From NCBI GenBank assembly GCA_030017995.1, contig JASEGS010000002.1:21463-85462 (forward strand): 64,000 nt of DNA, given 5' to 3'. Origin of the DNA: Thermodesulfovibrionales bacterium. Its GTDB lineage: Bacteria > Nitrospirota > Thermodesulfovibrionia > Thermodesulfovibrionales > Dissulfurispiraceae. The translations under genes and the position numbers were made by a program. Within the stretch, counting starts at the first letter, position 1; each line of letters starts with the position of its first letter. Shown here one piece after another: positions 4,993 to 51,149 of the stretch. The notes beneath the pieces are model-generated. The model made no database searches and was not told where the DNA came from. It was given only the letters and a program-made list of their open reading frames with translations.

Positions 4993-5127
4993 CATCAACA
5001 GAGCAGAAGAGCAGAAGAGCAATAGTTTTCAAGTCCCAATGGCATAAAATAAATAATATCTTATTTTTCAGGTTGTTATCTGTTAACTTCCGCTCTACTG
5101 ATCTTCTGCTCTATTGCTCTGTTGATG
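4993..5127. repeat. octad-phased palindromic element (GAGCAGAA family)
   Basis: Left arm CATCAACA GAGCAGAA GAGCAGAA GAGCAATA (4993..5025). Right arm TTCCGCTC TACTGATC TTCTGCTC TATTGCTC TGTTGATG (5088..5127) is the complement form of the same 8-mers. Spacer about 60 nt. Confidence 0.85.
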
Positions 5128-6684: not shown

Positions 6685-6737
6685 GCTCGGAAGAGCAGAA
6701 GAGCGGAAGCTCAGAAGTTGAGAGGATAAGAAGTTCA
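6685..6737. repeat. half element of the GAGCAGAA octad family
   Basis: GCTCGGAA GAGCAGAA GAGCGGAA GCTCAGAA directly after the porin stop codon. No complementary arm follows. Confidence 0.7.
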
Positions 6738-6768
6738 GGCGGCGGGCATTAGCCCGCCGCCTTTTTTT
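6738..6768 (+). terminator. rho-independent terminator of the porin gene
   Basis: GGCGGCGGGC ATTA GCCCGCCGCC followed by a run of 7 T. Confidence 0.88.
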
Positions 6769-6819: not shown

Positions 6820-8463
6820 TTGAATTTGAGCGCTAAAGGCAAAATAGCAAAGGCTGCTGGAGCAATGTCAGCGGCGACCTTTATTAGCCGCATACTCGGC
6901 TATGTAAAGGACATGATACTGGCAAAGTTCTTTGGCGCCACAGGCGCAGCAGATGTTTTTTTTGTCGCCTTCAGGATCCCAAATCTATTGAGGGAGCTTT
7001 TTGCAGAAGGCTCCATGTCATCGGCATTTGTCCCTGTTTTGACAGAGTATCAGACAAAAGAGGGAAGGGATGAGGCGAACAGACTTGTAAGAGCAGCATT
7101 TATATTCATTGTCATCTTTGTCGGCATTGTATGTATTCTGGGGATCATGTTTGCCCCTGCGATTGTATCAGCAATTGCACCCGGATTTTTGAGCGATTCT
7201 GAAAAGTTTTCAGATACAGTGCTTCTTACGAGGATAATGTTTCCTTTTCTTTTGTTTATAAGCCTTGCATCTTTATTTATGGGCGCTCTTAACACAAGGG
7301 GCGTGTTTTTTATCCCAGCTTTAGCGCCTGCGCTTTTGAATGTTGTAACTATCGTTTCTGTCCTGACCCTTTCCATGCATTTTGTAAATCCAATTATATC
7401 AGTGGCAATTGGCGTAACAGCCGGAGGGCTTGTCCAGTTTCTTTTTCAACTGCCGTCATTTTTCAAACAAGGATACACTTTCAGAAGTCAGAAGCCAGAA
7501 GCCAGAAGCCAGAAGCCGAAAATCTCTGATTTAAACTCATCACTCATCACTCATCACTCATCACTGTCTTTCTGGCATCCGGGACTAAAGAGAATAGGCA
7601 TCCTCATTTTGCCTGCTACTGCCGGTATGGCAGTAGCTCAGATAAATATATTCATAAGCACTATCCTTGCATCATATCTTGCAGAGGGGAGTATTACATA
7701 TCTTTATTATTCGATGAGGCTGATACAATTCCCAATTGGCATATTCGGTGTTGCTATGGGAATGGCTGTGCTTCCAGCATTATCTGAGCATTCTGTGAAG
7801 GGAGAGACTGATAAACTTAAAGAGGATTTCTCTTTTGCCCTTCGCCTCCTGTTTTTTATAACTGTTCCTGCGATGATAGGACTTATCGCTTTGAAGGCTC
7901 CAATTGTAAGCACGCTTTTTCAGCGAGGCAAGTTTGGATATGATGCGACCATAGGCACATCAGATGCGCTTATGTTTTATTCATTTGGCATATGGGCAAT
8001 AGTGGGCGTTAGGGTTATCACCTCAACCTTTTATTCGATGCAGGATACAAAGACGCCTGTAAAAATAGCTGCCTTTGCAGTGCTTATAAATATTGTGATG
8101 AGCATCATGCTCATGGGTCCTATGAAGCACAACGGGCTTGCCTTTGCGAATGCCATTGCGTCGAGTTGTAATTTTGTATTGTTATTTTATTTTTTAAGAA
8201 AGAGGCTCGGGGGCATAGGCACAAAGAGAATAGCGCTCTGTTTTTCAAAGACATTGATAGCATCTTCAGTTATGGGGATTGCAGGGTGGCTTATTGTCAG
8301 GAGCGAGGTGTGGACATTAAGCGGTCATAGTCTCAAGAAGGCTGCATATCTCGGTTCAGCAATAATAATTAGCAGCGTAATATACCTGTTGCTGTCTTAT
8401 TTACTAAAGAGTGAAGAGATGAGGTATATTACAGATAAGATAAGGCAAAAACTTGGAATATAA
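6820..8463 (+). CDS. murJ: lipid II flippase MurJ (MviN family), with an in-frame repeat insertion
   Basis: 547 aa. N-terminal SRILGYVKDMILAKFFGA...FFVAFRIPNLLRELFAEGSMSSAFVP signature and many TM segments. TTG start. Confidence 0.9.
   Translation: MNLSAKGKIAKAAGAMSAATFISRILGYVKDMILAKFFGATGAADVFFVAFRIPNLLRELFAEGSMSSAFVPVLTEYQTKEGRDEANRLVRAAFIFIVIFVGIVCILGIMFAPAIVSAIAPGFLSDSEKFSDTVLLTRIMFPFLLFISLASLFMGALNTRGVFFIPALAPALLNVVTIVSVLTLSMHFVNPIISVAIGVTAGGLVQFLFQLPSFFKQGYTFRSQKPEARSQKPKISDLNSSLITHHSSLSFWHPGLKRIGILILPATAGMAVAQINIFISTILASYLAEGSITYLYYSMRLIQFPIGIFGVAMGMAVLPALSEHSVKGETDKLKEDFSFALRLLFFITVPAMIGLIALKAPIVSTLFQRGKFGYDATIGTSDALMFYSFGIWAIVGVRVITSTFYSMQDTKTPVKIAAFAVLINIVMSIMLMGPMKHNGLAFANAIASSCNFVLLFYFLRKRLGGIGTKRIALCFSKTLIASSVMGIAGWLIVRSEVWTLSGHSLKKAAYLGSAIIISSVIYLLLSYLLKSEEMRYITDKIRQKLGI
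7482..7565 (+). repeat. heptad-phased tandem repeat block inside murJ (84 nt, 12 heptads, 28 codons)
   Basis: CAGAAGT, then CAGAAGC x4, three degenerate heptads, then CATCACT x4. Translates to SQKPEARSQKPKISDLNSSLITHHSSLS. Confidence 0.9.
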
Positions 8464-12461: not shown

Positions 12462-14885
12462 ATGTCCTATTTCATTTTTTTCATTTGCGGCGCAGCGCTT
12501 TTTTACATTCATAGATACTTTCCATTTACAAGCCTTTCTATATTCATGGTAATTGCAGGCCTGCATTTATTTTTCAGCACAAAGAAAAAGTTTGCTCGCA
12601 GTTCATTTCTTGGCGCTGCCTCAATGGTGATTATTGCCTTCCTTGGGTTCTATTATGCCAATCTTTGGCATAAACCACAGATCCCTCCCTCAGAGATTGC
12701 CGGCAGGAGTGTAATAGTCGAGGGCATTGCAAGATCAGAAGCAGTTCAGTTAACCAATGGCGTTTTCTCGCAATTGATTGAAGTTAAAAAAGCAGAGGAT
12801 GAACATGGGAATATAATAAATTTAAAAGAGATCAAATTATTCAGCAATGCCCGGTTTAGCAATAACAGAATATTTATGATAAAGGCAAAGATCCCTGCTG
12901 AATCTTATTTCCTGAATCCATGGGGTGTAAGAAATCGTGTTCATGGTTATGTCTATGAGACAATTGAGACAGGCAGTAGAGACTTGGGATTTTTCGAGGA
13001 AACAAGGCTCAAACTCAATAGATTTTTAAAGGATAATTTTACAAGTGAATCTTCCGCATTTCTCATGTCCATTATAACAGGGGAGAGAGGTTTGCTAAAG
13101 AAGGAGACGAGAGACGCATTTAACTCAACAGGGCTTGCCCATATACTTAGCATATCAGGAGCTCACTTTGGATTGTTATTCTTTATCGTGTTCAAGTTTT
13201 TTAGAGTTTTGGTGAAACTGCTTCCGTATAATCTTCTTGCAAGATTAACGCTCTATATTACGCCGTCTCAGATAGCCGCAGTTCTGTCTATCCCGGTAAT
13301 GATCGGCTATCTCGGCATTTCAGATATGAGTTTTCCAGCCATCAGGTCATTTATCATGATAACCCTCTTTCTCTTTGGTCTCGTGATCCAAAGAAGAGGT
13401 TTTTGGCTGAATACATTGCTCTTTGCAGCAGTCGTGATAATTTTGATCCAGCCTGATTCGATCCTCGACCTCTCATTCCAGCTTTCTTTTATTGCTGTAT
13501 TGTGCATTGGACTGACAGCAGAACAGAAGGGCGGAAGAGCAGAAGAGCAGCAGTTTAAAAAAGAGGGAGCAACTCCATATGTCGAAGCTACCGGTCTACT
13601 GCTCTACTGGTCTGCTGCTCTAAAGTTCTGCTCTTCTGCGCTGAAAATTTCCCTCGCTGCAACCATTGGCACAGCGCCAATTGTGGCTTATTATTTTCAT
13701 TATTTCTCCCTTATATCGCCTCTTGCAAATCTTATTATTACGCCTGTTATTGGATTCATTATCCTCCCTGCAGCGCTTATCTCTTCATTTATCTTTCTTG
13801 TATCCGGCATCTTTCCTGCTCATGCAATTATAGACAAGCTCACCGCATTTGTTATCTCAGCAATAAAATATATTGCACAGTGGGGTTTTACAGAAGTGAA
13901 GATAGCAGCCTTTCCTCTCATATTGCTTGTGATGTTTTATGCCGGGATATTGTTTTATGTGTTCATAAAGAACAGGCAGGAACAGTCCAAAGCGTTATCT
14001 GTTATTTTGACGATAACCGTTTCTGTCATCCCATTTATCGTCTATGCAGTTATAAGGTTTTCTGAGCACAAGGGTATACAGATTACCTATCTTGATGTAG
14101 GGCAGGGAGATTCTGCTGTGGTCGAATTGTCTGATAAAAGGATACTTGTAGTGGATACAGGCAGAAACGGTTTTCAGACAGGCGAGTTTTTGCGATATAG
14201 AGGCATTAAAGAGATCGACGCTGTCGTTTTATCTCATGGTCAATCAGACCATGCAGGCGGCATAGAACAGCTTATAAAGAACTTTAAGGTCAATGAGATA
14301 TGGGATAACGGCAGGCAGGTTTATCCAGAGGGTTTTTTAAAAGGCATTCGGCACAGGGTATTACAGCGGGGAGATGTTGTGAAAGGCAATGGATATAGAA
14401 TTGTATTTGTCCATCCATATGATGGATTTTACACGCTATATTCGGGTAACAATGATGAAAACAACGAATGTCTTGTATTCAAGATTCAGGGGATTAAAAA
14501 TACTTTTCTCTTTACAGGGGACATTGAGGAAGAGGCTGAAAGCGATATTGCACATTTAGACGAGAAGATTAAGAGCAGTGTTTTAAAGGTTCCGCACCAC
14601 GGAAGCCGGACATCCACATCAGAAATATTTATGTATGCAGTTTCTCCTGAGATCGCGGTAATAAGCTCAGGGAGGAGAAATTCATACGGCCATCCTCATG
14701 AAGAGACGCTTGATAAATTTGGCAATATCCGTGTGCTGAGGACAGATCTGGATGGAGCGATAAATATAAGAGAACTATCCGATGGAAGCCTTAAAATCCG
14801 GACATGGAAGGACTTTCAGATAACAGAGGTAAAAGGGTTGAAACAAGAATTCAAGAATTTAGAAAAACTATTTCTTGTATGGTAG
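12462..14885 (+). CDS. comEC: DNA internalization-related competence protein ComEC/Rec2, with an in-frame repeat insertion
   Basis: 807 aa. Polytopic competence domain plus C-terminal MBL domain (YLDVGQGDS, LSHGQSDHAGG, VPHHGS). Confidence 0.85.
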   Translation: MSYFIFFICGAALFYIHRYFPFTSLSIFMVIAGLHLFFSTKKKFARSSFLGAASMVIIAFLGFYYANLWHKPQIPPSEIAGRSVIVEGIARSEAVQLTNGVFSQLIEVKKAEDEHGNIINLKEIKLFSNARFSNNRIFMIKAKIPAESYFLNPWGVRNRVHGYVYETIETGSRDLGFFEETRLKLNRFLKDNFTSESSAFLMSIITGERGLLKKETRDAFNSTGLAHILSISGAHFGLLFFIVFKFFRVLVKLLPYNLLARLTLYITPSQIAAVLSIPVMIGYLGISDMSFPAIRSFIMITLFLFGLVIQRRGFWLNTLLFAAVVIILIQPDSILDLSFQLSFIAVLCIGLTAEQKGGRAEEQQFKKEGATPYVEATGLLLYWSAALKFCSSALKISLAATIGTAPIVAYYFHYFSLISPLANLIITPVIGFIILPAALISSFIFLVSGIFPAHAIIDKLTAFVISAIKYIAQWGFTEVKIAAFPLILLVMFYAGILFYVFIKNRQEQSKALSVILTITVSVIPFIVYAVIRFSEHKGIQITYLDVGQGDSAVVELSDKRILVVDTGRNGFQTGEFLRYRGIKEIDAVVLSHGQSDHAGGIEQLIKNFKVNEIWDNGRQVYPEGFLKGIRHRVLQRGDVVKGNGYRIVFVHPYDGFYTLYSGNNDENNECLVFKIQGIKNTFLFTGDIEEEAESDIAHLDEKIKSSVLKVPHHGSRTSTSEIFMYAVSPEIAVISSGRRNSYGHPHEETLDKFGNIRVLRTDLDGAINIRELSDGSLKIRTWKDFQITEVKGLKQEFKNLEKLFLVW
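13516..13643. repeat. palindromic GAGCAGAA-family element inside comEC
   Basis: Left arm CAGCAGAACAGAAGGGCGGAAGAGCAGAAGAGCAGCAG. Right arm CTACTGCTCTACTGGTCTGCTGCTCTAAAGTTCTGCTCTTCTGCGCTG. Read through in frame as AEQKGGRAEEQQFKKEGATPYVEATGLLLYWSAALKFCSSAL. Confidence 0.8.
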
Positions 14886-42850: not shown

Positions 42851-45568
42851 ATGAATAAAATGCAATGGCATAAGAAAAAAAATGAAGATGTAATTGAACA
42901 ACTACAGTCATCACTTGGGGGACTTTCCCCGGCGGAGGCTCGGAAGCGTCTTTCCGAATACGGTCCCAACGAGCTAATGGAGAAAAAAAAGAAGACTCCG
43001 CTCATGATGTTCCTTGACCAGTTCAAGGACTTCATGATCCTCGTTCTTATCGCTGCTGCAATCGTGTCAGGAATTATCGGCGAGCCCTCGGATACCATAG
43101 CGATTGTTGTAATAGTTGTTCTTAATGCCATCATAGGCTTTGTTCAAGAATACAGGGCTGAAAAGGCAATGGTCGCACTCAAACAAATGGCTGCGCCGTT
43201 TGCAACAGTAATAAGGGACGGGATGCCTGCAAATATCCCTGCATCAGCGCTTGTCCCCGGAGATATAGTAATCCTTGATGCCGGAAATGTCGTGCCTGCG
43301 GATATGAGGCTGACAGAGACCGCCATGTTAAAGATAGAGGAAGCTGCACTTACCGGCGAGTCCGTGCCTGTTGAAAAGCATACAAAGGCATTGCATGATG
43401 AGCATTTGCCGCTTGGCGATAGAAAGAACATGGCATATAAAGGCACATTTACAACTTATGGCCGCGGTATGGGAGTTGTTACGGCAACAGGTATGGATAC
43501 GGAGCTTGGCAAGATTGCAGCAATGCTCCAGGAGGAAGAAGAGGTAAAAATACCGCTTCAGAAAAGGCTTGCCAAATTCGGGCAGAAACTTGCAATTGCC
43601 GTCCTTGCAATATGCGCTATTGTCTTCGGCATCGGCATTTTAAGAGGAGAAGCGCCTTTATTGATGCTCCTTACAGCCATTTCCCTTGCTGTGGCGGCAA
43701 TACCAGAGGCGCTTCCGGCAGTTGTAACCATTTCACTCGCCCTCGGAGCGAAAAAGATGGTGAAGCAGAATGCCTTGATAAGAAAACTTCCGGCAGTAGA
43801 AACCCTCGGCTCCGTTACCTATATCTGTTCGGATAAAACAGGAACCCTTACTTTGAACAAAATGACGGTGGAAGAGATTTATGTGGATGGAAAATTAGTA
43901 AGAGCAGAAGAGCAAAAGAGCGGAAGATCAGAAGCAACAGATTTTAGAACTTCTGCACTTCTGCGCTTCCCGACTTCTGCGCTTTTTACTGCCCTTGCTT
44001 TGAGCAATGACGCGCAGGTGGATGCCTCAGGCAATGTAATAGGCGACCCAACTGAAATTGCATTGTACAACATTGCAAGGGATAAAGGTTTTGATAAGAG
44101 GGAACTGGAAAAGAAATTCCCGAGGGTTGCGGAAATTCCATTCGATTCGGACAGGAAATGTATGACGACAATACATGGAGCAGAAGAGCAGAAGAGCAGA
44201 AGTGCGGAAGGAAAGACTTCCGAACTTCCGAGCTTCCGCTCTAATTTCGTTTCTTTTACAAAAGGTGCGATAGAAGTATTGATTGACAAGTCGGATTATA
44301 TCCTGATATCTGATGGACTGAAGGCAGTGGATAAGGCAGAAATCCACAAAGCAAGCGAAAGAATGGCTACTGATGGGTTGAGGGTACTGGGCATTGCAAT
44401 GAGGAGATGGGACAAACTGCCTGATGACATGTCTCTTGAGAATGTAGAGACAGGACTCACTATTTTAGGTCTTGTGGGGATGATGGATCCTCCGAGGGAA
44501 GAGGCTAAAGAGGCGGTTGCGCTTTGCAAGACCGCGGGCATAAGACCTGTGATGATAACCGGAGACCATCCTATTACCGCAAAGACAATAGCCGAAAGGC
44601 TCGGAATAATAGAGGACGATTCAAGACATATAATCACCGGCAGGGAATTGGAAAGACTGCCATTGGAAGAATTTGAAACGCGGGTCGAGCATATACGCGT
44701 ATATGCCCGCGTCGCTCCCGAACAGAAATTAAAAATAATAAAGGCCCTTCAGGACAGGGGGCAGTTCGTCGCGATGACAGGAGACGGGGTGAATGACGCC
44801 CCTGCATTAAAAAGGGCGGATATAGGGATTGCTATGGGGATTACGGGAACGGATCTATCCAAAGAAGCTTCCGATATGATCCTGCTCGATGACAATTTCG
44901 CGACCATTGTAAAGGCGGTGAAAGAGGGAAGGAAGATATACGACAACATAAGAAAGTTCATAAAATATCTCCTCACGACGAATTCAGGCGAGATATGGAC
45001 GCTTTTCTTAGCTCCGCTTGCAGGGCTGCCGATCCCGCTTCTGCCGATCCATATACTCTGGATAAACCTCATGACAGACGGCCTTCCCGCCCTCGCACTA
45101 TCCGTAGAGCCGGCAGAAGGAGATGTAATGAGAAGGCAGCCGCGTCATCCGCAGGAGAGCATATTCGCGGGAGGTTTGGGCCTTCATGCGATATGGGTAG
45201 GGTTGCTGATGGCAGGCATTGTTTTGTTTGTTCAGGCTTGGAGCATTAAGACAGGAAACGCCCATTGGCAGACAATGGTATTTACTGTGCTTTGCCTGAC
45301 TCAGCTCGGACATGTGCTTGCAATAAGGTCGGAGAGCGAGTCGCTGTTTAAGATCGGATTGTTTTCAAATAATGCCCTTCTCGGAGCGGTTGTTTTAAGT
45401 TTTGCATTCCAGATAGCAACTATTTATGCACCTGTCCTGAATCCAATATTTAAGACAGAGCCATTAACTTTGAACGAACTGATATTTACACTCGGCCTGT
45501 CATCTGTGGTATTCTTTGCAGTCGAGATTGAAAAGTTTGTCAGGAGGAAGAAATGGCAGATGTCATAA
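42851..45568 (+). CDS. P-type ATPase, type IIA (Ca2+/cation-transporting, SERCA/PMCA-like), with two in-frame repeat insertions
   Basis: DKTGTLT phosphorylation site, [26 protein letters not shown]. Start uncertain (42851 or 42860; tracked ORF starts at 42794). Confidence 0.93.
43902..43981. repeat. octad-phased palindrome inside the ATPase gene (insertion 1)
   Basis: GAGCAGAA GAGCAAAA GAGCGGAA GATCAGAA GCAACAGA TTTTAGAA CTTCTGCA CTTCTGCG CTTCCCGA CTTCTGCG. Translated as [28 protein letters not shown]. Confidence 0.9.
44178..44241. repeat. octad-phased palindrome inside the ATPase gene (insertion 2)
   Basis: GAGCAGAA x3, GTGCGGAA, GGAAAGAC, TTCCGAAC, TTCCGAGC, TTCCGCTC. Translated as [21 protein letters not shown]. 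Confidence 0.9.
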
Positions 45569-49847: not shown

Positions 49848-51149
49848 ATGGAGAAAAATAAAATCAATGTAGGGATAATAGGATTCGGCACTGTCGGCAC
49901 AGGCGCTGCAAAGATATTGCTTGAAAACTCCGGAGTCATTAAAAAACGCACAGGAATTGATTTTGTCTTAAAGCGTATCGCAGACCTCGACATAAAAAGG
50001 GACAGAGGAATCAAGATTCCCCAAGGCGTTCTTACGACCGACGCAAACGCGATTCTTAATGATCCTGAGATAGACATAATTGTAGAGCTTATGGGTGGTA
50101 TCCGTCCTGCGAAGGACTTCATGCTCAATGCAATAAAAAACAAAAAGCATGTTGTTACCGCGAACAAGGCCCTTCTTGCGACAGAGGGAAATGAGATATT
50201 CGGCGAGGCTGAAAAGAACGGAGTCGAAGTAGGGTTTGAGGCGTCTGTTGCAGGAGGTATTCCGATAATAAAGGTCTTGAGGGAAGGGCTGGTTGCAAAC
50301 AATATAATAGCTGTTTACGGGATCATCAACGGCACATCCAATTATATTCTTACAAAGATGACGGATGAAAAGGTCGAATTCTCGGATGCGCTGAAGGAGG
50401 CGCAGAGGCTCGGCTATGCAGAGGCTGATCCTACATTCGACATAGAAGGCATTGACACAGCGCACAAACTTACAATCCTTTCGTCACTCGCTTACGGGAT
50501 TCCGCTTTCTTATAATGAGGTTTACAAAGAAGGCATTACAAAGATAACTGCTCAGGATATAGAATTCGCATCAGAGCTCGGCTATAAGATAAAACTGCTT
50601 GCGATAACAAAGCTGTCTAACGGAGCAATAGAGATGCGGGTGCACCCTACGATGATACCGAATGAATATCTGATCTCAAAGGTTGACGGAGTTTTTAATG
50701 CGGTTTATGTAGAAGGAGACACTGTTGGCTCGACCCTCTATTATGGAAGAGGAGCCGGAGATATGCCCACAGGAAGCGCTGTTGTAGCTGACATCGTTGA
50801 CATAGGGAAAAATATAGCGGCAGGTACCGTGCAGTCTGGATTAAGGATGCAGGATTCAGGACTCAGGATAAAGAAGATGGAAGACATAGAGAGCATGTAC
50901 TATTTCAGATTTTCAGCGATGGATGAACCGGGCGTGCTTTCAAAGATTTCCGGAATACTTGGCAATTACAATATAAGCATTGCGTCAGTTATTCAGAAAG
51001 GCAGGAGGCTTGGGGGCTCTGTCCCTCTTGTGGTTCTCACGCATACTGCAAAGGAGAGAGATGTGCTCAGCGCCGTGAAGGAGATAGATAACCTTCATAT
51101 TGTCTCTGACAAGACAATTTTTATAAGGGTGGAAGGCAAGGAAGAATAA
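49848..51149 (+). CDS. hom: homoserine dehydrogenase
   Basis: 433 aa. GIIGFGTVGTG NAD fold. Catalytic domain. C-terminal ACT domain. Confidence 0.93.
   Translation: MEKNKINVGIIGFGTVGTGAAKILLENSGVIKKRTGIDFVLKRIADLDIKRDRGIKIPQGVLTTDANAILNDPEIDIIVELMGGIRPAKDFMLNAIKNKKHVVTANKALLATEGNEIFGEAEKNGVEVGFEASVAGGIPIIKVLREGLVANNIIAVYGIINGTSNYILTKMTDEKVEFSDALKEAQRLGYAEADPTFDIEGIDTAHKLTILSSLAYGIPLSYNEVYKEGITKITAQDIEFASELGYKIKLLAITKLSNGAIEMRVHPTMIPNEYLISKVDGVFNAVYVEGDTVGSTLYYGRGAGDMPTGSAVVADIVDIGKNIAAGTVQSGLRMQDSGLRIKKMEDIESMYYFRFSAMDEPGVLSKISGILGNYNISIASVIQKGRRLGGSVPLVVLTHTAKERDVLSAVKEIDNLHIVSDKTIFIRVEGKEE

What the first reader, a model, noticed from the sequence alone, without database searches (positions are those of the whole stretch)
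7482..7565. Exactly 12 heptads (84 nt, 28 codons) inserted in murJ
The block reads CAGAAGT, CAGAAGC x4, three degenerate heptads, then CATCACT x4, all in a single 7-nt phase. A 7-nt unit preserves the frame only in multiples of three units, and the block is exactly 12 units. This is consistent with selection on the length of an otherwise slippage-prone array within an essential gene. Unlike the octad elements, the two halves are not complementary. The peptide (SQKPEARSQKPKISDLNSSLITHHSSLS) appears to fall in a loop between membrane domains. Unit-number changes not divisible by three would switch murJ off, so this is either a contingency locus or a strongly constrained passenger.
Basis: seen in the sequence. 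Interest (0 to 1): 0.62.

Follow-up and report, generated by a model that had tools for sequence, protein, structure and literature searches.

The report
In-frame heptad repeat insert in MurJ
The 84-base block in murJ is real, but it is one of about 125 short 7-base repeat arrays sitting in frame inside about 100 ordinary genes of this Nitrospirota genome; it is translated as a floppy loop and nothing indicates an on/off switch.

Summary
Window 7482-7565 reads CAGAAGT, CAGAAGC x4, 21 non-repeat bases, then CATCACT x4, in frame in the only murJ gene.

Against the order-wide baseline loop the net insert is 72 nt (24 codons), not 84. It lies between TM6 and TM7 and is the only low-confidence, coil segment of an otherwise good AlphaFold model.

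It is not a one-off. The 1.7-Mb Thermodesulfovibrionales MAG holds about 225 heptad arrays, mostly 4-5 units. Of these, 125 lie inside 99 genes, including leuS, alaS, murD, uvrA, smc and purL.

The same murJ site carries heptad arrays of at least eight unit types in sister genera, always in frame. Close relatives differ by exactly three units (1 vs 4 CAGAAGT; 1 vs 4 CATCACT).

No out-of-frame allele was seen in more than 100 orthologues. The arms are short and the gene is housekeeping. A contingency-switch reading is therefore not supported, and "constrained passenger" is.

Closest known kinds are cyanobacterial and Xanthomonas heptameric repeats and the in-frame Rickettsia palindromic elements. 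I found no description for Nitrospirota. No reads from the source sample were available, so within-population variation remains untested.

The parts
6820..8463 (+). murJ coding sequence (lipid II flippase), 547 aa from a TTG start. The gene call on record is 545 aa, so it starts two codons later.
   Evidence: ORF; Pfam MurJ E = 3.8e-127; 81% identical orthologues; only one full-length MurJ match in the genome.
7393..7467 (+). Codons 192-216: predicted helix before the insert, taken as TM6 (last helix of the N-lobe).
   Evidence: AlphaFold2 model, (helix 192-216). The alignment to solved MurJ chains ends at query residue 218.
7482..7517 (+). Left arm: CAGAAGT + CAGAAGC x4 (+C), 5.1 heptads. Read in all three frames it gives (R)SQKPEARSQKP.
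   Evidence: The unit belongs to the commonest family in the genome, CAGAANN.
7518..7534 (+). Non-repeat spacer GAAAATCTCTGATTTAA. Together with the right arm it is orthologous to the same stretch in a 76%-identical MurJ (L171).
   Evidence: CTCTGATTTAAACTCATCACTCATCAC is identical in the window and L171. A TTTAACT junction is also shared with the leuS copy.
7535..7565 (+). Right arm: ACTCATC x4.4 (= CATCACT x4), encoding SSLITHHSSL.
   Evidence: G008 has one copy, G013 has 2-3, and L171 has four diverged copies at the same junction. An identical arm sits in leuS at G000:C52:36544-36574.
7492..7566 (+). Codons 225-249: the only segment of the MurJ model with pLDDT below 50, predicted as coil. 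This is the translated insert.
7579..7671 (+). Codons 254-284: predicted helix after the insert, taken as TM7 (first helix of the C-lobe). It is preceded by the conserved FWHPGLKRIG motif.
   Evidence: The alignment to solved MurJ resumes at query residue 249. H253, P254 and G255 are invariant in 34 orthologues.
7476..7572 (+). Stretch replaced by 46 nt in a roughly 90%-identical relative from a sediment metagenome. The difference is 51 nt, or 17 codons.
   Evidence: joint 7475->7573, '46 letters between'; flanks show 16/187 and 20/197 differences.

Best explanation
The block is a pair of short heptanucleotide tandem arrays. They belong to a genome-wide class, also found patchily across Nitrospirota, of 7-nt-period arrays of about 4-5 units.

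This pair sits in the TM6-TM7 linker of MurJ and is translated as a hydrophilic, disordered 24-residue loop extension.

A heptad array of three or more units is read in all three frames in turn. It therefore encodes the same 7-residue peptide repeat in whatever codon phase it lands.

In coding DNA, only versions with these three properties survive:
- no stop codon in any sense frame;
- a total added length that is a multiple of 3;
- a polar peptide placed at a permissive loop.

Unit number and unit sequence turn over, by inference through strand slippage, unequal exchange or conversion between units. In this gene only changes of three units (21 nt), or other net multiples of 3, are seen among relatives.

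It is a tolerated, frame-constrained passenger, not a switch.

Shown: the anatomy, the location, the genome-wide class, recurrent use of the same site, and the three-unit differences.
Inferred: slippage as the generating process, translation of the insert, and its neutrality.
For: Anatomy and frame.

Insert relative to baseline:
- Other families of the order have a 48-nt loop (NGYSLKPEYDFRHPGL).
- Only close relatives (68% identity or more) carry +12 to +81 nt, all in frame.
- Loop length ranges from 7 to 55 aa in 120 homologues, with peptides derived from at least 8 heptad types.

Location:
- The PDB MurJ alignment breaks at residues 218/249.
- The AF2 model has mean pLDDT 84.3, and its only segment below 50 is residues 225-249, a coil between helices 192-216 and 254-284.

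Genome-wide class:
- Period 7 dominates: 302 TRF rows against 140 for period 8 and 53 for period 6.
- A strict scan finds 81 tracts against 0 in a shuffled genome.
- Of about 225 arrays, 125 are internal to 99 genes.
- These genes include LeuRS, AlaRS, MurD, UvrA, a Cu-ATPase, SMC-like and PurL-like proteins.
- Array lengths peak at 26 and 32-34 nt in both coding and non-coding DNA.

Selection filter:
- The sense strand is purine-rich in 91 arrays against 34.
- Where the antisense orientation would also be stop-free, the ratio is still 43 against 8.
- S/Q/R/K/E make up 56% of array peptides against 28% of the proteome.
- Intergenic arrays show no orientation bias, 22 against 22.

Three-unit steps: L031 vs L032 have 1 vs 4 CAGAAGT. 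G008 vs this genome have 1 vs 4 CATCACT at the same junction.

Fast turnover: a roughly 90%-identical relative has 51 nt less at this site.

The same behaviour appears at other sites. The leuS and alaS insertion points carry different heptad arrays in different genera.

Generality:
- CAGAANN arrays are abundant in several Nitrospirota lineages: 99 hits here, 37-96 elsewhere, with reversed-pattern controls mostly 0-5 and occasionally higher.
- A 400-kb sample of the complete sister genome G008 has 67 heptad arrays, 27 of them inside genes.
Against: - No reads of the source population could be found, so unit-number heterogeneity within the population is untested.
- Passive slippage does not explain why period 7 dominates, or why arrays prefer 4-5 units in non-coding DNA too.
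- It does not explain why the same unit family (CAGAAGT) recurs across distant Nitrospirota lineages.
- Arrays at the leuS site keep clear periodicity and 5 units across three families. That needs ongoing homogenisation or selection, not mere tolerance.
- The right arm plus adjacent spacer bases are identical in murJ and leuS. This hints at copying between loci rather than purely local growth.
- The TM6-7 loop of MurJ has been proposed to transmit force between the lobes (PMC6465408). Neutrality of a 24-residue insert there is therefore assumed, not shown.
Confidence: 0.68

Rival explanations
1. Dispersed or mobile element. The block, or each arm, was delivered as a pre-formed module, like a MITE or Rickettsia palindromic element, or was copied from another locus by gene conversion. 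On this view it did not grow in place, and the heptad arrays are the body of a tiny selfish element family.
For: - The right arm CATCACT x4 plus the preceding TTTAA(A)CT is identical in murJ and leuS of the same genome, with unrelated left arms.
- Many loci are bipartite 'phased palindromes' with complementary arms and a T-rich spacer.
- The same unit families occur across distant Nitrospirota lineages.
- Array sizes are sharply peaked at 26 and 33 nt even outside genes.
- A second class of tiny in-frame palindrome (C7...G7) occupies the same murJ site in L031 and L032, and occurs in alaS of G015.
- Y1-transposase (RAYT-like) genes are present in 10 of 12 array-rich genomes against 6 of 14 array-poor ones.
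Against: - No terminal inverted repeats or target-site duplications were seen at the murJ block.
- Dozens of different unit sequences exist, which argues against a single element.
- The five Y1_Tnp genes of this genome are not flanked by heptad arrays.
- Orthologous arrays share junctions and differ by whole units, as expected for growth in place.
- A native proto-repeat (AATTTCAAATTCAGG) exists at the alaS site in an array-free genome.
Confidence: 0.2
2. Selected function. The array is maintained because it does something. It could act at the protein level, as a longer flexible linker between the MurJ lobes. Or it could act at the nucleic-acid level, as a binding site for a factor that recognises 4-5 motifs spaced 7 nt apart, or as a translational pause.
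For: - The TM6-7 site is occupied by heptad arrays in many genera, and periodicity is kept despite sequence turnover.
- leuS arrays keep 5 units across three families.
- A preferred array size holds regardless of coding status.
- The TM6-7 loop is mechanistically implicated in MurJ gating (PMC6465408).
Against: - Close relatives (L033 and L035, 75-77% identity) have no insert at all, and some loops are shorter than the baseline.
- The peptide sequence is not conserved across unit types.
- The AF2 model gives no structure for the segment.
- No RNA structure is predicted and there is no Rfam match.
- No candidate binding factor was identified.
Confidence: 0.1
3. Contingency locus. Slippage by one or two units switches murJ off and on in a subpopulation, as in the heptanucleotide switch of E. 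coli neuO.
For: A 7-nt unit inside a coding sequence does give ON only at certain lengths. The neuO precedent is AAGACTC x3-53, ON when the count is divisible by 3 (PMC13001214). Variation among relatives shows that the tract does change length.
Against: - There are only 5 and 4 units, interrupted by a spacer, and the tract lies mid-gene.
- This is the only MurJ homologue in the genome.
- No out-of-frame allele appears among more than 100 orthologues, whereas 65.6% of neuO genomes are OFF.
- About 99 other genes, many housekeeping, carry such arrays, with no N-terminal enrichment. N-terminal enrichment is the signature linked to phase variation (PMC3315296).
Confidence: 0.04
4. Assembly or binning artefact: the repeat block was created or mis-sized by the assembler.
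For: The genome is a 55-contig MAG, and no reads were available to check it.
Against: - Each arm is 31-36 nt, shorter than any read.
- The ORF is intact.
- Independent MAGs, and a complete single-contig genome (G008), carry homologous arrays at the same junction.
Confidence: 0.01

Closest known systems
Heptameric simple sequence repeats of bacteria: cyanobacterial STRR (Calothrix/Nostoc/Anabaena) and GGGNATC repeats of Xanthomonas and Nostoc (Rehm et al. 2015, PMC4692102)
   Same: They are 7-nt units in short tandem arrays, dispersed in hundreds of copies. They show a marked preference for a small fixed unit number (four in Rehm et al.; 4-5 here). Unit families are shared by related taxa, and many copies lie next to genes.
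   Different: - The phylum is different (Nitrospirota, Thermodesulfovibrionales).
- The units are different and much more diverse (CAGAANN, CATCACN, AAATYTC and others). They are not G-rich, so they cannot form quadruplexes.
- More than half of the arrays lie inside genes and are translated, whereas the published families are reported as under-represented in coding regions.
- STRR inside a functional gene is known to me only for RNase P RNA (Vioque 1997, seen as a reference).
Rickettsia palindromic elements (RPE) and other intragenic MITEs (review PMC10969869)
   Same: They are small repeated sequences found in frame inside many unrelated housekeeping genes. They are translated as extra peptide segments compatible with the protein fold.
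   Different: RPEs are about 150 bp, palindromic, and have a conserved family sequence and peptide. This block is 84 nt, is made of two non-complementary 7-nt arrays, shows no terminal repeats, and changes by whole units in place.
neuO heptanucleotide contingency locus of E. coli K1 (PMC13001214)
   Same: A 7-nt unit lies inside a coding sequence. The frame is kept only for certain unit numbers, and three units encode a 7-residue peptide repeat.
   Different: neuO has 3-53 uninterrupted units at the 5' end of a dispensable, phage-borne surface-modification gene, and most genomes are OFF. Here there are 5 + 4 units in the middle of the sole murJ gene, and no OFF allele was seen in relatives.

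Membership tests
Intragenic heptanucleotide contingency locus (neuO type) | Long uninterrupted homogeneous tract (neuO: 3-53 units, commonly about 20) | tested here: not met
   The two arms have 5.1 and 4.4 units and are separated by 17-21 nt. neuO figures come.
Intragenic heptanucleotide contingency locus (neuO type) | Out-of-frame (OFF) alleles common among related genomes | tested here: not met
   All MurJ orthologues examined read through the site: 29, 80 and 120 proteins. In neuO, 65.6% of genomes are OFF.
Intragenic heptanucleotide contingency locus (neuO type) | Tract near the 5' end of a dispensable, environment-facing gene | tested here: not met
   The tract covers codons 221-249 of 547 in the only MurJ homologue of the genome. 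Arrays genome-wide are spread evenly from N- to C-terminus.
Intragenic heptanucleotide contingency locus (neuO type) | Length heterogeneity of +/-1 unit within one population | not testable with these tools
   No run holds the source genome. Only a roughly 90%-identical relative was seen in X1.
Bacterial heptameric SSR families (STRR / GGGNATC type) | 7-nt tandem units dispersed at high copy number, far above chance | tested here: met
   About 225 arrays in 1.7 Mb. Period 7 dominates. A strict scan gives 81 tracts against 0 in a shuffled genome.
Bacterial heptameric SSR families (STRR / GGGNATC type) | Preferred small unit number | tested here: met
   Modes are at 3.6-3.9 and 4.6-4.9 copies (26 and 32-34 nt) in both coding and non-coding DNA. 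Rehm et al. report a preference for four units.
Bacterial heptameric SSR families (STRR / GGGNATC type) | Unit family shared by related taxa | tested here: met
   (CAGAANN)x4 gives 99 hits here and 37-96 in several other Nitrospirota genera. Reversed-pattern controls are mostly 0-5 and occasionally higher.
Bacterial heptameric SSR families (STRR / GGGNATC type) | Mainly intergenic; under-represented in coding regions | tested here: inconclusive
   56% (125 of 225) are internal to genes, against a coding density of about 90% on a crude ORF map. They are therefore under-represented relative to density, yet still mostly intragenic. This differs from the published families.
Bacterial heptameric SSR families (STRR / GGGNATC type) | G-tracts able to form quadruplexes (GGGNATC class only) | tested here: not met
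   CAGAAGC and CATCACT have no G runs.
Rickettsia palindromic elements / intragenic MITEs | In-frame insertion in unrelated housekeeping genes at sites compatible with the fold | tested here: met
   Arrays occur in MurJ, LeuRS, AlaRS, MurD, UvrA, a Cu-ATPase and others. The MurJ insert is a disordered loop.
Rickettsia palindromic elements / intragenic MITEs | Palindromic body or terminal inverted repeats, about 100-150 bp | tested here: not met
   The block is 84 nt and its arms are not complementary (fold z = +1.06). Other loci in the genome are palindromic.
Rickettsia palindromic elements / intragenic MITEs | Near-identical copies dispersed to unrelated sites | tested here: inconclusive
   The right arm plus about 8 adjacent bases are identical in murJ and leuS. 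The left arms and the flanks differ.

The most novel reading that the evidence does not exclude
Thermodesulfovibrionales and other Nitrospirota may have a dedicated, so far undescribed process that writes and keeps homogenising 7-nt-period arrays of 4-5 units throughout the genome. Candidates are a repeat-making or repeat-copying activity, or a factor that selects for such arrays.

Such a process would explain several observations:
- arrays are found in about 6% of protein-coding genes, including essential ones;
- the same permissive sites (MurJ TM6-7 loop, LeuRS, AlaRS) stay occupied for family-level time spans;
- unit sequences turn over in concert;
- lengths jump by three units.

The murJ block would then be a visible product of that process rather than of ordinary slippage.
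Probability: 0.25. Interest if true: 0.8.

Novelty: new variant of a known kind. Interest (0 to 1): 0.56.

Why it matters
Short tandem repeats with units not divisible by three are normally purged from the middle of bacterial genes (PMC3315296). Published heptameric repeat families are described as mainly intergenic (PMC4692102).

Here about 100 genes of a small genome, including an essential flippase and tRNA synthetases, carry translated heptad arrays. The same sites are reused across genera, and changes come in three-unit steps.

If this holds up, it would give:
- a natural map of insertion-tolerant loops in conserved proteins;
- a clean system for measuring how the reading frame filters repeat dynamics;
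- a lead to whatever sets the 7-nt period and the 4-5-unit size.

For MurJ specifically, the result shows that the TM6-7 linker tolerates loops of 7 to 55 residues. That linker has been proposed to couple TM7 straightening to N-lobe rotation (PMC6465408).

Tried and rejected
- **Source reads:** two look-ups found only one sediment run (X1). It holds a roughly 90%-identical relative, not the source.
- **The relative's 46-nt allele:** laying X1 on each flank alone did not reveal it.
- **Exact-sequence look-ups of MurJ:** nothing found. The protein cluster has a single member, so no strain-level alleles were available.
- **Hairpin or RNA element in the block:** rejected. The fold z-score is +1.06 and no Rfam family reaches its threshold.
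- **REP/RAYT-type system:** Y1 transposase genes are somewhat commoner in array-rich genomes (10 of 12 against 6 of 14). The five copies here are not flanked by heptad arrays. Inconclusive.
- **Frame constraint as the cause of the 33-nt modal size:** rejected, because non-coding arrays show the same modes.
- **A strand-specific (transcription-coupled) origin of the purine-rich sense bias:** not supported, because intergenic arrays between co-directional genes split 22 against 22.
- **'Single 7-nt phase' of the two arms as a meaningful feature:** rejected, because it is not conserved in G013, G009 or G001.
- **One wasted search:** one search used a wrong partial AlaRS query.
- **Literature:** searches for heptanucleotide repeats in Nitrospirae or Thermodesulfovibrio found nothing.
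Full report
**1. The observation**

Window 7482-7565 reads CAGAAGT, CAGAAGC x4, CGAAAAT CTCTGAT TTAAACT, CATCACT x4. Tandem Repeats Finder reports two arrays: 7482-7517 (period 7, 5.1 copies, 96% matches) and 7535-7565 (period 7, 4.4 copies, 100% matches).

The block lies in ORF 6820-8463 (+), 547 aa. This ORF matches Pfam MurJ at E = 3.8e-127 and is the only full-length MurJ match in the genome.

The arrays are not chance. None of 100 shuffles reaches the observed CAGAAGC matches. A strict lag-7 self-match scan of the whole genome gives 81 tracts against 0 in a codon-shuffled genome. The halves are not complementary: as RNA the region folds worse than its shuffles (z = +1.06). No Rfam family matches.

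**2. Where the insert sits**

The organism is a Nitrospirota MAG of the Thermodesulfovibrionales, judging from the record titles of the nearest genomes. It has 1.70 Mb in 55 contigs at 42.4% GC.

In other families of the order, the stretch between the conserved GY and HPGL motifs is 48 nt (NGYSLKPEYDFRHPGL). Here it is 120 nt, a net insertion of 72 nt or 24 codons.

Alignment to solved MurJ chains breaks at query residues 218/249, opposite six residues of the E. coli-type chains. An AlphaFold2 model built on 34 orthologues has mean pLDDT 84.3. Its only segment below 50 is residues 225-249, a coil between helices 192-216 and 254-284.

MurJ has an N-lobe (TM1-6) and a C-lobe (TM7-12). The TM6-7 loop lies on the cytoplasmic side and has been proposed to transmit TM7 straightening to the N-lobe (PMC6465408).

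**3. The murJ site in relatives**

Only genomes whose MurJ is about 68% or more identical carry inserts. The inserts range from +12 to +81 nt and are always in frame. Many are visibly heptadic, with different units:

| Genome or locus | Content at the site |
|---|---|
| G008 | CAGARGN x5 + CATCACT x1 |
| G013 | AGAAGTC x2 ... CATCACT x2-3 |
| G007 | CAGAAGT x2 |
| G018, L034, L037 | AAATTTC x3-4 |
| G015 | CTCACGG x3-4 |
| G001 | CAGCMGT x7 + CATCACG x2 |
| G009 | CAGGAGT x6 + CCTCACG x4 |
| L032 | CAGAAGT x4 followed by a C7...G7 hairpin |
| L031 | the same as L032 but with one CAGAAGT |
| L033, L035 (75-77% identical) | no insert |

In 120 homologous proteins the loop is 7-55 residues long, with peptides that betray at least eight heptad types.

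The junction CATCACT|G(T/C)CTTTC(T/A)TGGCATCC is shared by this genome, G008 and G013. The spacer plus right arm are orthologous in L171, which is 76% identical: 27 consecutive bases are identical and L171 has four diverged units.

Two comparisons show changes of exactly three units. L031 and L032 have 1 vs 4 CAGAAGT. G008 and this genome have 1 vs 4 CATCACT.

A sediment metagenome holds a roughly 90%-identical relative with 46 nt where this genome has 97. The difference is 51 nt, or 17 codons.

The site is therefore very dynamic, but every allele seen keeps the frame.

**4. The genome-wide context**

TRF on the whole genome gives 302 period-7 rows against 140 for period 8 and 53 for period 6. 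After merging there are about 225 heptad arrays.

Of these, 125 lie inside ORFs of 120 aa or more, with at least 30 aa on each side. They fall in 99 genes; 22 genes hold two to four arrays.

The genes are ordinary and conserved. LeuRS and AlaRS have orthologues in all 31 genomes searched. MurD, UvrA and a P-type ATPase were confirmed by Pfam. Other hosts look by eye like SMC, PurL, CusA and GlnE.

Arrays are spread evenly along proteins. Lengths peak at 26 and 32-34 nt, that is four or five 'cores' such as CAGAA separated by two variable bases. This holds in coding and non-coding DNA alike.

In genes the sense strand is purine-rich in 91 arrays against 34. Where the opposite orientation would also be stop-free, the ratio is still 43 against 8. 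S, Q, R, K and E make up 56% of the encoded residues, against 28% in the proteome. Intergenic arrays between co-directional genes show no orientation bias, 22 against 22. The bias therefore looks like selection on the peptide.

leuS carries an octad array (CAGAGCAG x4.4), a spacer and the same CATCACT x4 arm, including the adjacent TTTAACT.

At the leuS and alaS insertion points, other genera, and for leuS other families, carry different heptad arrays (AAATYTC x5, CATCACY x4, CAGGATW). Many relatives have none.

A 400-kb sample of the complete sister genome G008 has 67 heptad arrays, 27 of them in genes. The pattern (CAGAANN)x4 is abundant in several, but not most, Nitrospirota lineages.

**5. 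How it most likely works**

A heptad array of three or more units is read in all three frames. It therefore encodes one 7-residue repeat whatever the codon phase: CAGAAGC gives QKPEARS and CATCACT gives HHSSLIT.

In a gene it can persist only under three conditions:
- no sense frame has a stop. The reverse of CATCACT, AGTGATG, contains TGA;
- the total added length is a multiple of three;
- the peptide is tolerable where it lands.

The murJ block meets all three, and it sits in a loop whose length is free in this family.

I infer that unit gain, loss and homogenisation occur by slippage or exchange between units, and that the frame filter leaves only three-unit or compensated changes. The three-unit differences are observed. 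The process itself is inferred.

**6. Why it is not a switch**

The neuO precedent has 3-53 uninterrupted units at the 5' end of a dispensable gene, and two-thirds of genomes are OFF (PMC13001214).

Here the arms have 5 and 4 units and lie mid-gene in the sole murJ. No OFF allele appears in more than 100 orthologues. The same arrays sit in about 99 other genes, many of them housekeeping, with no N-terminal enrichment. N-terminal enrichment is the signature linked to phase variation (PMC3315296).

Within-population data are missing, so a low level of out-of-frame variants cannot be excluded.

**7. What remains unexplained**

- Why the period is 7, with 8 a distant second.
- Why arrays have 4-5 units even outside genes.
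- Why CAGAAGT recurs across distant lineages.
- How arrays keep their periodicity at one site across families.
- Why murJ and leuS share an identical arm.

These points keep a mobile or copied-element origin, and a dedicated mechanism, alive. A first test of a REP/RAYT-like link was inconclusive.

**8. Comparison with known systems and novelty**

The arrays work like the heptameric repeats of cyanobacteria and Xanthomonas: same period, a small preferred unit number, and genome-wide dispersal. Those families are described as under-represented in coding regions (PMC4692102).

They also work like Rickettsia palindromic elements in being translated in-frame guests of housekeeping genes (PMC10969869). 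They lack the size and palindromic body of RPEs.

I found no description of such arrays in Nitrospirota. I rate the finding as a new variant of a known kind.

The specific murJ block is an ordinary member of that class. The class itself is the interesting part.

Noticed in passing
G000:C52:36478-36574 (leuS, outside the window): LeuRS carries an in-frame bipartite insert: CAGAGCAG x4.4 (octads), a spacer, then CATCACT x4.4. The right arm and adjacent bases are identical to the murJ right arm. Relatives have AAATYTC x5 arrays, or nothing, at the same site.
   Followed up: yes
L031 and L032 (murJ loop); L170 (alaS of G015): A second class of tiny in-frame insert was seen: a C6-7 ... G6-7 palindrome (e.g. 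CCCCCCCTTAATCCCCCCCTTGCTAAGGGGGGGAATGGGGGGG). It is translated as PPLNPPLAKGGNGG or LPIPPFTKGGMGG and occurs in different genes of related MAGs.
   Followed up: partly
L147 (alaS of G002): An AAATTTC heptad array is interrupted by a nested 17-nt hairpin (TCCCGAACAAGTCGGGA). This recalls small dispersed repeats nested in heptamer arrays.
   Followed up: no
window 50838-50869: A GGATTCA x4.6 heptad array lies inside ORF 49848-51149 (+). It is a second intragenic array in this window.
   Followed up: partly
window 5000-5120, 13516-13632, 43900-43984, 44178-44238: Paired octad arrays occur here (AGAGCAGA / GCTCTACT and similar), whose two arms look complementary. Period 8 is the second most enriched period in the genome (19 strict tracts).
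   Followed up: partly
window 6690-6768: Between the porin-like gene and murJ there is an octad run (GGAAGAGC AGAAGAGC GGAAGCTC ...). It is followed directly by a canonical terminator hairpin, GGCGGCGGGC-ATTA-GCCCGCCGCC plus a T run.
   Followed up: no
L193:6853-6951 (G008:C1:~2286853-2286951): An ATGGAAG x14.1 heptad array lies inside a 491-aa open frame of the sister genome. It is much longer than the usual 4-5 units and is a better candidate for real length variation.
   Followed up: no
G000:C7:2636-3346, C11:76062-76733, C44:71207-72055, C29:5711-6679, C24:5-202: There are five Y1-transposase (PF01797, RAYT-like) genes or fragments in a 1.7-Mb genome. Some have a long C-terminal extension. 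None is flanked by heptad arrays.
   Followed up: partly
(leuS of G007; alaS of G005, G012, G001, G026, G025): Single in-frame stop codons are counted inside otherwise full-length LeuRS and AlaRS matches in several relatives. They may be read-through of the natural stop into a C-terminal extension. This was not examined.
   Followed up: no
G000:C11:34808-36256 (murD): MurD holds four separate heptad arrays (units AAGTCAG, TTGACTC, ATTTGAA, TGACTTC on the + strand) within 200 codons.
   Followed up: partly
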